Below are positions 24,150 through 24,868 of a stretch of 64,000 nucleotides of DNA, in pieces. The notes under the pieces were generated by a model. The model made no database searches. It was not told the DNA's origin and saw nothing but the letters and a program-made list of their open reading frames with translations. The translations under genes and the position numbers were made by a program. The DNA is from a virus. Numbering within the stretch: the stretch's first letter is position 1; each line of letters begins with the position of its first letter. The stretch lies in the IMG/VR virus record IMGVR_UViG_3300007513_000009, one strand, 5' to 3'.

Positions 24150-24290
24150 ATGCCAAATAAAAATGCTAAACAAAGAAAATGGAAACGTCAAAAAGCTAAT
24201 AAGTGGTTAGCAGAAAATGGTCGAACTGCAAATCAAATTAAAAAAAAGAAACAAAAACAAAAAAATTTATTGAATAAACGAGGATTATAA
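24150..24290 (+). CDS. Small highly basic protein (46 aa), not in the ORF track
   Basis: MPNKNAKQRKWKRQKANKWLAENGRTANQIKKKKQKQKNLLNKRGL*; fills the gap exactly (1 nt after the upstream stop; stop overlaps the next ATG as TAATG). Confidence 0.7.
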   Translation: MPNKNAKQRKWKRQKANKWLAENGRTANQIKKKKQKQKNLLNKRGL

Positions 24291-24868
24291 TGAATGGGGG
24301 TCTTAAAATAGGAAGATTGCTTTGTGATGAAGATATCATTACTAAACGACAATTAAATCTAGCATTACAAGCTCAAGTAAAGGGCGATAAAAGAACACTT
24401 GGAGAGATACTTGTAGCTAAAGAGTTTTGTACACTCAATGATATAACAGAAGTTATAATGAGAAGTACAGATGAAAATGGTCATGAAGATCGTCAAGAAG
24501 AGATATCTGAAAAGATAGAAGGCCCGTTGGCGAAAGAGTCAGTAGAAATAAGTGAACGTACTAAGTTCACATTATCAGTACAAACAATAATTGCAGCTGC
24601 AACAGGTATAGCATCTTTGGTTGGAATGTGGTATATGTTACAGGCAGATATACAAGAAGCAAAAGAACTACCATCGTTGCAATCTTTATATGAAGGAGAG
24701 TATCCATCAAAGGCTCCAGGCTATAACTGGCCAACTTCATATGAACAATATACGAGTCAAGTCGGAACACTTCAAGATGATATGGATGAAGTATTGAAAC
24801 GATTGGACGATGCAGAAAAAACGATACAAGATCTTCGAGTTCAAGTAGCTAAGAAGAGAAATAAATAG
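24290..24868 (+). CDS. MshEN-like domain + transmembrane helix + coiled-coil protein
   Basis: KIGRLLCDEDIITKRQLNLALQAQ-VKGDK-RTLGEILVAKEF resembles the tandem MshEN motif RLGxxLLxxGLIxxxxLxxxLxxQ; TM IIAAATGIASLVGMWYML; heptad C-terminus. Confidence 0.75.
   Translation: MNGGLKIGRLLCDEDIITKRQLNLALQAQVKGDKRTLGEILVAKEFCTLNDITEVIMRSTDENGHEDRQEEISEKIEGPLAKESVEISERTKFTLSVQTIIAAATGIASLVGMWYMLQADIQEAKELPSLQSLYEGEYPSKAPGYNWPTSYEQYTSQVGTLQDDMDEVLKRLDDAEKTIQDLRVQVAKKRNK

What the first reader, a model, noticed from the sequence alone, without database searches (positions are those of the whole stretch)
24290..24868. Stand-alone membrane-anchored MshEN-like (c-di-GMP receptor) protein next to phage pilins
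Seen: aa 6-56 form two tandem motifs (KIGRLLCDEDIITKRQLNLALQAQ / RTLGEILVAKEFCTLNDITEVI), then an acidic linker, one TM helix and a coiled coil; there is no ATPase domain. Known: MshEN (RLGxxLLxxGLIxxxxLxxxLxxQ twice) is the c-di-GMP-binding N-domain of MshE/PilB/GspE ATPases. Inference: the phage protein may sense or sequester host c-di-GMP, or act as a decoy for the pilus ATPase N-domain, linking host lifestyle signalling to pilus control. Several consensus positions are altered (R to K, G to D/E), so binding may be weakened or lost.
Basis: partly seen in the sequence, partly recalled or inferred. Interest (0 to 1): 0.8.

Follow-up and report, generated by a model that had tools for sequence, protein, structure and literature searches.

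The report
Phage membrane protein with MshEN head
An abundant, uncultured marine T4-like phage has a small inner-membrane protein whose cytoplasmic head is a genuine copy of the bacterial c-di-GMP-binding MshEN fold. The head is grafted onto a widespread three-gene phage envelope module rather than tied to the neighbouring pilins, so the phage may read a host second messenger, which is still untested.

Summary
ORF 24290-24868 (192 aa) has an N-terminal four-helix domain (aa 3-62), an acidic His/Glu-rich linker, one TM helix and a C-terminal coiled coil. It has no ATPase.

A family profile hits only the N-domains of PilF, PilB and MshE in the PDB (E 5e-9 to 1e-4). The AlphaFold model (pLDDT 89) is closest to c-di-GMP-bound MshE (Z 9.5) and PilF GSPII-B (Z 9.0). 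Both key glycines and the hydrophobic clusters are kept in 151/151 relatives. The R-to-K and R-to-T changes fall at the two positions where PilF GSPII-B, the 6 nM binder, also departs from the consensus.

- **Pilins:** they are accessory, present in 15/50 related loci.
- **Constant context:** the fixed unit is OM-barrel-like protein, this protein, then a secreted redox-dead thioredoxin fold.
- **Wider module:** the same module occurs in at least 600 other viral contigs, where the middle protein is about 95 aa and lacks MshEN.
- **Nearby genes in relatives:** a holin, a cNMP-binding membrane protein and H-NOX.

Best reading (about 0.45): a second-messenger sensor head added to a late envelope or lysis-associated module. 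Ligand binding, host identity and host c-di-GMP synthesis are untested.

The scan had already noted this family on at least six other genomes. I found no paper describing it.

The parts
24290..24868 (+). Whole gene: MshEN_N head, linker, TM helix and periplasmic coiled coil (192 aa)
   Evidence: ORF. 3282 clusters of relatives in metagenomes. 80 viral loci.
24305..24376 (+). MshEN motif I (aa 6-29, KIGRLLCDEDIITKRQLNLALQAQ)
   Evidence: Aligned to motif I of PilB, PilF and MshE. G8, L11, D15, T18-L22 and Q29 are invariant in 29 diverse relatives.
24395..24466 (+). MshEN motif II (aa 36-59, TLGEILVAKEFCTLNDITEVIMRS), after the 6-residue spacer VKGDKR
   Evidence: G38 and E39 are invariant. The first residue is S/T in 137/151 relatives and K/R in 12. 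The last residue is mostly S.
24467..24565 (+). Acidic, His/Glu-rich flexible linker (aa 60-92). Its length varies from 30 to 70 aa in relatives, and some are Pro-rich.
   Evidence: pLDDT below 50. Alignment. H65, E66 and H68 are conserved among close relatives.
24566..24643 (+). Single TM helix (aa 93-118) preceded by the invariant T-K-F motif
   Evidence: AF2 helix 97-125. T91, K92, F93, T99, G112 and Y115 are invariant. The motif is shared with the short forms.
24644..24865 (+). Predicted periplasmic part (aa 119-192): invariant EAKxLP and EYPSxPxGxNWPxSYEQY motifs, then a coiled coil (aa 151-191)
   Evidence: Homologous to the C-terminal part of the ~95-aa short forms.
22847..24148 (+). 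Module partner 1: signal-peptide, aromatic-rich protein ending in Phe, predicted OM beta-barrel
   Evidence: Precedes the gene in 77/80 loci. Homologous to the ~355-aa partner of the short forms (E 8e-68). The nearest named Atlas clusters are all OM barrels, which is a lead only.
24150..24290 (+). 46-aa very basic peptide, stop/start overlapped (TAATG) with the MshEN gene
   Evidence: Sequence. A homologous 48-aa ORF is found in 31/82 loci.
24878..25252 (+). Module partner 2: secreted thioredoxin-fold protein without CxxC (WQGN), ending in Phe
   Evidence: Pfam Thioredoxin E 2e-6. Directly downstream in 80/80 loci. Homologous to the partner of the short forms (E 2e-10).
25396..27351 (+). Four type IV pilin-like genes: accessory neighbours, not part of the constant module
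   Evidence: N_methyl hits. Present in 15/50 relatives with enough downstream DNA.

Best explanation
The protein is a bitopic inner-membrane protein with its N-terminus in the cytoplasm and its C-terminus in the periplasm.

- **Cytoplasmic head:** a minimal MshEN_N domain, the 53-54-residue four-helix unit that binds one c-di-GMP in MshE, PilB and PilF.
- **Membrane and periplasmic part:** belongs to an older, widespread phage family of ~95-aa proteins. These always work with a phage-encoded OM-barrel-like protein and a secreted, redox-dead thioredoxin fold.

In this T4-like lineage the MshEN head was added to that module. The most likely mechanism is that the head binds host c-di-GMP, or a close cyclic dinucleotide. 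Through the flexible linker and TM helix it would then alter the oligomeric state or partner binding of the periplasmic part. This would couple a late envelope function to the host's second-messenger state. That function is probably lysis or its timing, less likely surface remodelling or exclusion.

Shown: fold, homology, architecture, synteny and domain accretion. Inferred: topology, ligand, output and timing.
For: - **Homology:** a family profile hits only MshEN/GSPII N-domains (PilF 5e-9, PilB 3e-8, MshE 1.3e-4).
- **Fold:** the AF2 N-domain has pLDDT 88.8. Top neighbours are c-di-GMP-bound 5htl (Z 9.5, TMq 0.75, rmsd 1.6-2.3 A) and 8pdk (Z 9.0), followed by 6f8l, 2d28 and 7lkm.
- **Ligand-contact skeleton:** both Gly whose backbone amides bind guanine, and all Leu-cluster positions, are kept in 151/151 members. 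These are the residues whose mutation costs more than 10-fold affinity (PMC5013675).
- **Deviating positions:** K6 and T36 coincide with K167 and L196 of the 6 nM binder PilF GSPII-B (PMC11731258). Divergent members have canonical RLG, KLG and a final Q.
- **Sufficiency:** ligand contacts lie mainly within MshEN_N. The one MshEN_C contact (Asp108) is dispensable (PMC5013675).
- **Accretion:** 73 of the 150 best representatives of the TM/periplasmic family are short forms without a head, and only 8 carry the double motif.
- **Shared module:** the same OM-barrel, TMcc, Trx order occurs in both lineages.
- **Signalling and lysis context in relatives:** H-NOX overlaps the gene start (PF07700, 2e-46). 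A POPDC-like cNMP-binding membrane protein follows Trx in 19/50 loci. A phrog_3427 holin (1e-26) follows in 14/50. Endolysins (M15, phrog_33083) lie within 2-4 genes of the short-form module.
Against: - No binding data exist.
- Pfam PF05157 does not score the protein even at E<=1.
- The published relaxed 24-mer pattern is not met. Motif I has Asp at the turn Gly and Cys at a hydrophobic position. Motif II has T at position 1 and E at its turn.
- The final Gln of motif II is replaced (S59).
- The host is unknown. No GGDEF gene was found in five related 96-127 kb phage contigs.
- None of 61 genomes of the class of a Flavobacteriales MAG had a GGDEF hit over the cut-off. If the host is of that kind, there may be no c-di-GMP to sense.
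- TKRQL, at positions that vary in MshEN, is invariant here. This fits a protein-binding surface as well as it fits ligand binding.
- The lysis link rests on gene neighbourhood in a minority of loci, and no holin or endolysin is in this window.
- The periplasmic part (~74 aa) is short for a spanin.
Confidence: 0.45

Rival explanations
1. Pilus or T2SS machinery adaptor or decoy. The head acts as a protein-binding copy of the PilB/GspE N-domain. It docks onto host partners (PilZ/FimX, GspL/PilM, PilC) at the membrane, blocking the host pilus (exclusion) or steering the machine to assemble the phage pilins. No nucleotide is involved.
For: - XpsE-N (2d28, Z 7.7), which binds XpsL and has lost c-di-GMP binding, and Xanthomonas PilB-N in complex with PilZ (7lkm, Z 7.0), are among the top structural neighbours.
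- The invariant TKRQL surface residues suggest a conserved protein interface.
- In this window four pilins lie 0.5 kb downstream, and pilins occur only in the K-type motif clade (15/39 against 0/11).
- Phage inhibitors of PilB are known, such as Aqs1 and Tip (PMC13436744, PMC11656802).
Against: - The gene is core, while pilins are present in only 30% of relatives.
- The module functions without any head in hundreds of other phages.
- No close PilB or GspE donor was found among longer proteins.
- The ligand-contact skeleton is conserved more strictly than a mere scaffold would need.
Confidence: 0.2
2. Ligand-free structural head on a spanin-like or antiholin-like lysis protein. The four-helix domain only oligomerises or tethers the protein on the cytoplasmic face. 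The MshEN resemblance reflects ancestry, not a retained sensing function.
For: - The architecture is bitopic with a periplasmic coiled coil.
- An OM lipoprotein gene abuts the gene in most relatives (60/76 loci).
- Holin and endolysin genes lie nearby in both lineages.
- The motif deviates from the published patterns, and there is no Pfam hit.
- Many MshEN domains, such as XpsE, have lost binding (PMC5013675).
Against: - XpsE-type losses involve Gly-to-bulky or Leu-to-charged changes, and none is seen here.
- Both Gly are invariant across 45-99% identity.
- The adjacency of other messenger-binding proteins (H-NOX, cNMP binder) argues for a signalling role.
- The lipoprotein is absent from this window and is about three times longer than typical o-spanins.
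Confidence: 0.2
3. Cyclic-oligonucleotide sponge or sensor aimed at host defence signals. The head captures CBASS-type dinucleotides such as 3'3'-cGAMP rather than c-di-GMP.
For: - MshEN binds cGAMP weakly (PMC5013675).
- GGDEF genes were not found in the sampled Bacteroidia-class genomes. A different dinucleotide would make sense if the host is FCB-like.
Against: - Known sponges are soluble and abundant, not membrane-anchored single-site proteins.
- The guanine-specific backbone contacts are kept for both halves.
- There is no direct evidence.
Confidence: 0.07

Closest known systems
MshEN_N subdomain of Vibrio cholerae MshE (PDB 5HTL; Wang et al. 2016, PMC5013675)
   Same: - Four-helix arrangement, with rmsd 1.6-2.3 A over 55-57 residues and 28-31% identity.
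- Tandem 24-residue motifs.
- Both guanine-contacting Gly, the Leu clusters and the Gln ending motif I.
   Different: - No MshEN_C subdomain and no ATPase.
- Spacer of 6 residues, not 5.
- K for R9, T for R38, S for Q61, D and E for the two turn Gly.
- Followed by a TM helix and a periplasmic coiled coil.
- Virus-encoded.
GSPII-B domain of Thermus thermophilus PilF (PDB 8PDK; PMC11731258)
   Same: - Lys at motif I position 1 and a non-basic residue at motif II position 1, yet KD is 6 nM.
- Model match Z 9.0.
   Different: - It is part of a triple-GSPII, 889-aa pilus ATPase.
- It keeps both terminal Gln and both turn Gly.
NfrB of E. coli (inner-membrane glycosyltransferase with a C-terminal MshEN domain; PMC8669469)
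   Same: An MshEN domain on a membrane protein, used to put an envelope function under c-di-GMP control outside the pilus or T2SS ATPases.
   Different: - NfrB is a polytopic bacterial enzyme with a full MshEN domain.
- Here the protein is a bitopic 192-aa phage protein with only MshEN_N and no enzyme domain.
Short ~95-aa phage 'TMcc' proteins of uncultured marine phages (e.g. P0174, P0196; weak hits to phrog_1009, 736 and 20984, all of unknown function)
   Same: - TKF-TM-EAKELP-R.E[YF]..K[DE]-coiled coil.
- Same gene order between the OM-barrel-like and Trx-like genes.
   Different: - They start about 10 residues before the TM helix and have no cytoplasmic domain.
- Their phages carry a T9SS C-terminal-domain protein next to the module.
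Two-component spanins (lambda Rz/Rz1, T4 PseT.3/PseT.2) and T4 holin T / antiholin RI
   Same: - Type II bitopic inner-membrane protein with a helical periplasmic domain.
- Adjacent OM lipoprotein gene in most relatives.
- Holin and endolysin nearby in some loci.
   Different: - No sequence similarity was detected.
- The periplasmic part is shorter.
- The partners are a beta-barrel and a Trx fold.
- The lipoprotein is ~190 aa and is missing from this window.
- No spanin is known to have a nucleotide-binding head.

Membership tests
MshEN / GSPII (T2SSE_N) c-di-GMP receptor domain | Four-helix MshEN_N fold (two helix-turn-helix halves) | tested here: met
   AF2 pLDDT 88.8. The best five of 48,161 PDB representatives are all MshEN/GSPII N-domains (Z 9.5-7.0), with the next, unrelated hit at 6.0. 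Foldseek's top hits are 5htl and 8pdk-type structures, probability 0.9-1.0.
MshEN / GSPII (T2SSE_N) c-di-GMP receptor domain | Significant sequence-profile similarity to solved members | tested here: met
   Family profile against PDB sequences: 6f8l 5.1e-9, 5zfr 3.1e-8, 6olj 8.2e-8, 5htl 1.3e-4. With close relatives only: 6.3e-5.
MshEN / GSPII (T2SSE_N) c-di-GMP receptor domain | Pfam PF05157 above the gathering score | tested here: not met
   No PF05157 hit at E<=1 for the protein or for any of 29 relatives. 21/29 give weak DUF4388 hits instead.
MshEN / GSPII (T2SSE_N) c-di-GMP receptor domain | Two tandem 24-residue motifs with both guanine-contacting Gly and the Leu-cluster positions hydrophobic | tested here: met
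   151/151 family members fit the skeleton (Cys allowed as hydrophobic). The spacer is always 6 residues.
MshEN / GSPII (T2SSE_N) c-di-GMP receptor domain | Published relaxed pattern [RKPN]hGxxhhxx[GAS]hhxxxxhxxxhxx[QNKRYWST] (PMC5013675) | tested here: not met
   The window protein fails in motif I (C12, D15) and in motif II (T36, E45, C47). 144/151 members have no exact match, and 7 match once.
MshEN / GSPII (T2SSE_N) c-di-GMP receptor domain | Binds c-di-GMP | not testable with these tools
   No ligand docking or assay is available. This is inferred only from conserved contact positions and from the precedent of PilF GSPII-B (K167, L196).
MshE / PilB / GspE secretion ATPases | C-terminal T2SSE ATPase domain (Walker A/B) | tested here: not met
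   The protein is 192 aa with no ATPase domain. No fused longer form was found. Related phage contigs hold only a weak P-loop match elsewhere.
Two-component spanin (i-spanin) | Type II bitopic protein with a periplasmic coiled coil, next to an OM lipoprotein gene, in a lysis cassette | tested here: inconclusive
   The architecture fits. A lipoprotein is adjacent in 60/76 relatives but not in this window. A holin lies downstream in 14/50 relatives. No spanin family hit was found in PHROGs or Pfam.

The most novel reading that the evidence does not exclude
This is the first virus-encoded c-di-GMP receptor. An abundant marine phage lineage fused an MshEN head onto a spanin- or antiholin-like envelope protein. 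It may thereby time lysis or envelope breaching according to the host's c-di-GMP level. In some relatives this would be wired to a phage H-NOX gas sensor and a cNMP-binding membrane protein.
Probability: 0.3. Interest if true: 0.8.

Novelty: new variant of a known kind. Interest (0 to 1): 0.62.

Why it matters
MshEN is known as a regulatory head of bacterial pilus and secretion ATPases and of a few bacterial enzymes. I found no paper describing it in a virus.

Here it sits on a core gene of a very abundant ocean phage lineage, with more than 3000 sequence clusters. It is attached to a three-gene envelope module that is itself uncharacterised and present in hundreds of other marine phages.

If it binds c-di-GMP, it would show that phages read the host's sessile-or-motile messenger directly at the membrane, possibly to decide when to lyse. 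It would also give a minimal (~55 aa) natural c-di-GMP binding unit.

Even if it does not bind c-di-GMP, the OM-barrel, TMcc, Trx module is a good candidate for a missing envelope-disruption or exclusion system in phages of FCB-type hosts, where classical spanins are rarely found.

Tried and rejected
- **Direct Pfam and PHROG scans of the protein:** no MshEN hit, only weak coiled-coil noise.
- **tblastn against 50,697 cultured phage records:** nothing for the protein, a short-form relative or the OM-barrel partner. Megablast of the 10-kb region also found nothing.
- **Fused longer forms of the head:** none found (weak evidence).
- **GGDEF in five related 96-127 kb phage contigs:** none.
- **T2SSE in the same contigs:** only ~15-bit P-loop matches in an unrelated ~400-aa ORF.
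- **T9SS C-terminal domain in the same contigs:** none (inconclusive).
- **Host inference:** two MAG contigs carrying the gene are labelled Pelagibacter and Flavobacteriales. They look like binned phage DNA, neither MAG has GGDEF, and I do not treat them as hosts.
- **Pfam on the large neighbouring virion ORFs:** no host clue.
- **Promoter and terminator scan:** no excess over shuffles.
- **Foldseek on the full-length model:** the same top hits but weak E-values, because the domain is short.
- **Rejected ideas:** a chance motif match, and membership of the PilB/GspE ATPases.

Full report
**1. The observation**

The ORF lies at 24290-24868 on the + strand and encodes 192 aa. A GAGGA ribosome-binding site sits 5 nt upstream. 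The ATG overlaps the stop codon of a 46-aa, very basic upstream ORF (TAATG). The next gene starts 10 nt after the stop. No terminator-like site or excess of promoter-like sites separates these genes.

The window is part of an uncultured marine T4-like myophage:
- It carries a baseplate wedge gene, a primase, a fused SbcCD and a RuvC.
- G+C is about 33%, and every ORF of at least 200 aa is on one strand.
- The closest cultured relatives are only 30-35% identical: Microcystis phage Mel-JY01 and Flavobacterium phage immuto.

- AlphaFold2 predicts four short helices (3-13, 19-30, 37-43, 49-62).
- A disordered acidic His/Glu-rich stretch follows.
- Then come a hydrophobic helix (97-125) and a 40-residue terminal helix (151-191).

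**2. Is the head an MshEN domain?**

Pfam does not say so. PF05157 gives no hit at E<=1 for this protein or for any of 29 relatives. Family profiles do say so:
- A profile of 24 close relatives hits PilB 5zfr at E 6.3e-5.
- A profile of 29 diverse relatives hits PilF 6f8l (5.1e-9), PilB 5zfr (3.1e-8), PilB 6olj/5tsg (8.2e-8) and MshE 5htl (1.3e-4).
- Every hit runs through residues 4-61 of the query and the N-terminal c-di-GMP-binding motifs of the target.

Folded alone with that alignment, the head reaches pLDDT 88.8.
- In an exhaustive comparison with 48,161 PDB representatives, the five best matches are all MshEN/GSPII N-domains: MshE with c-di-GMP (Z 9.5), PilF GSPII-B with c-di-GMP (9.0), PilF (8.1), XpsE-N (7.7) and Xanthomonas PilB-N (7.0). 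The first unrelated fold scores 6.0.
- Foldseek gives the same order, with TM 0.75 and rmsd 1.6 A over 55 residues.
- An automatic cluster name in the ESM Atlas also reads 'GspE N-terminal domain-containing protein', viruses 100%.

**3. Would it bind c-di-GMP?**

According to Wang et al. (PMC5013675):
- The ligand is held mainly by the backbone amides of Gly11/Gly40 and the residue after each, and by two triangular Leu clusters.
- Single changes of the hydrophobic residues cost more than 10-fold affinity, and G11 or G40 substitutions largely abolish binding.
- Arg9 and Gln32 changes cost less than 5-fold.
- Ligand contacts lie mainly within the first subdomain, MshEN_N. The single MshEN_C contact (Asp108) is dispensable.

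In all 151 family sequences I could examine, both Gly and every cluster position are kept, and the spacer is always 6 residues. HMMER aligns T36 with MshE R38, and R35 with R37.

The deviations are:
- K for Arg9.
- S/T for Arg38 (K/R in 12 of 151).
- Asp at the first turn Gly (149/151).
- Gly at the second turn in 122/151, but Glu in the window protein.
- Mostly Ser for the final Gln.

The published relaxed pattern is therefore not met. However, PilF GSPII-B binds at 6 nM with Lys and Leu at exactly the two first-position sites. Its Q218E mutant still binds at 460 nM (PMC11731258). More divergent family members carry RLG, KLG and a final Gln. None of the changes that inactivate XpsE (Gly to bulky, Leu to charged) is present.

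I put binding of c-di-GMP or a close dinucleotide at roughly even odds. It was not testable here.

**4. Context: the pilins are incidental**

In 80 related viral loci:
- The gene is followed directly by the secreted Trx-like gene in 80/80.
- It is preceded by the OM-barrel-like gene in 77/80.
- A ~190-aa lipoprotein gene abuts the module in 60 of 76 loci with enough upstream DNA, but it is absent from this window.

A variable island follows the Trx gene. Among 50 loci with at least 4 kb downstream:
- 15 hold pilins.
- 19 hold a three-TM POPDC-like cNMP-binding protein (PF00027, 4e-15).
- 14 hold a holin (phrog_3427, 1e-26).

Two loci have an H-NOX gene (PF07700, 2e-46) whose end overlaps the start of the MshEN gene. 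Pilins occur only in the clade with Lys at motif I (15/39 against 0/11). No PilB-type ATPase and no GGDEF gene was found in five related contigs of 96-127 kb.

**5. The body of the protein is an older phage family**

A profile of the TM and periplasmic part alone, searched against 1.84 billion representatives, found 227 proteins.
- Of the best 150, 73 begin about 10 residues before the TM helix and have no head.
- Only 8 carry the double motif. The rest are fragments.

These ~95-aa short forms share TKF-TM-EAKELP-R.E[YF]..K[DE]-coiled coil.
- They occur in at least 600 viral contigs.
- There they lie in the same order between a ~355-aa signal-peptide protein, homologous to the window's OM-barrel-like protein (E 8e-68), and a ~115-aa secreted Trx-like protein, homologous to the window's (E 2e-10).
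- Next to that module sit a large protein with a T9SS C-terminal sorting domain (PF18962, 8e-13), which points to FCB-group hosts.
- Within two to four genes, in a minority of loci, lie an M15 peptidase, an endolysin-type protein (phrog_33083, 8e-19) and a holin-like protein.

None of the three module proteins is found in cultured phages.

The MshEN head is thus an addition to a pre-existing three-gene envelope module.

**6. Mechanism**

Topology is inferred. There is no signal peptide, and a ~90-residue highly charged N-terminal domain that is cytoplasmic in every known homologue precedes the TM helix. The partners are exported.

The most economical reading is a sensor head on an envelope effector. 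Ligand binding to the head, tethered 30-70 residues from the membrane, would change the assembly of the TM and periplasmic part with the Trx-like and OM-barrel-like partners.

The recurring holin and endolysin neighbours, the bitopic coiled-coil architecture and the adjacent lipoprotein make a lysis-related role the best guess for the output. This could be spanin-like, or a regulator of lysis timing. The support is neighbourhood evidence from a minority of loci, with none from this window.

The co-located H-NOX and cNMP-binding proteins in relatives support a signalling role.

**7. What weighs against it**

- The host is unknown.
- Two MAG contigs carrying the gene are labelled Pelagibacter and Flavobacteriales. 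They are probably binned phage DNA, and neither MAG has a GGDEF gene.
- In 61 genomes of the class of the Flavobacteriales MAG, none had a GGDEF match over the cut-off, and 6 had an MshEN match. If the host is of that kind, c-di-GMP may not be the ligand.
- Earlier notes of this scan suggest a Marinimicrobia host. I did not test that.
- The invariant TKRQL stretch lies at positions that vary in bacterial MshEN. It fits a conserved protein interface, which keeps the decoy or adaptor reading alive.

**8. Novelty**

Full-text searches found no phage-encoded MshEN domain or virus-encoded c-di-GMP receptor. Known phage interference with this pathway acts on the cyclase YfiN or on PilB/PilZ through unrelated small proteins.

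The scan itself had already noted this family on at least six other genomes, including a follow-up on the H-NOX-coupled form that reached a similar reading. My identification of the H-NOX neighbour came from my own locus survey and agrees with that follow-up.

I class the finding as a new variant of a known kind: a known receptor fold, in a new architecture, in a virus, on an uncharacterised module.

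Noticed in passing
window 22847-25252; L087-L166: A three-gene module is shared by this T4-like lineage and at least 600 other uncultured viral contigs. It comprises an OM-barrel-like protein, a bitopic TM-coiled-coil protein and a secreted thioredoxin fold without CxxC. The Trx-like proteins, and the window's and many relatives' barrel-like proteins, end in an aromatic residue. None of the three has a relative in cultured phages.
   Followed up: partly
L020:5438-5986 (also L060): A phage-encoded H-NOX haem sensor (PF07700, E 2e-46) whose end overlaps the start of the MshEN-TM gene. 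The next genes are the Trx-like gene and a phrog_3427 holin. These two loci also have the most canonical MshEN motifs (RLG, KLG, final Q).
   Followed up: partly
L005:6992-7639 and 29 other loci: A POPDC-like protein (three TM helices plus a cyclic-nucleotide-binding domain; PF00027 4e-15, PF04831 2e-14) lies directly after the Trx-like gene in about 38% of relatives. It is absent from this window.
   Followed up: no
L005:5441-5998 and about 60 other loci: A ~190-aa lipoprotein (lipobox ..FSC, ..LGC) abuts the MshEN-TM gene or the Trx gene in most relatives. It has no family hit and is missing from this window.
   Followed up: no
window 24467-24565: The linker is His/Glu-rich (NGHEDRQEE here, NGHEEHHE or HEEKHEEIH in relatives), with H65, E66 and H68 conserved among close relatives. 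It may be a metal-binding stretch.
   Followed up: no
window 24323-24325 and 24428-24430: Two Cys (C12, C47) occupy core hydrophobic positions of motif I and motif II in this clade. Divergent members have L/M and V/I/L there. This could be a redox-sensitive pair or a neutral substitution.
   Followed up: no
window 24150-24290: A 46-aa extremely basic peptide (MPNKNAKQRKWKRQK...) is translationally coupled (TAATG) to the MshEN-TM gene. Homologous 48-aa ORFs occur in 31/82 related loci, at varying positions.
   Followed up: partly
L025:5198-5326 (six loci): A 43-aa ORF made almost entirely of Cys-Glu-Cys repeats (metallothionein-like) lies between the OM-barrel-like gene and the lipoprotein gene.
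   Followed up: no
L153:481-2964 and 52 other short-form loci: A large phage protein with a T9SS C-terminal sorting domain (PF18962, 8e-13) is encoded next to the short-form module. This implies FCB-group hosts for those phages.
   Followed up: no
window 28416-28796: A 126-aa protein with an HEIDH zinc-peptidase-like motif lies just before RuvC. It is conserved in 29 related loci and has no family hit.
   Followed up: no
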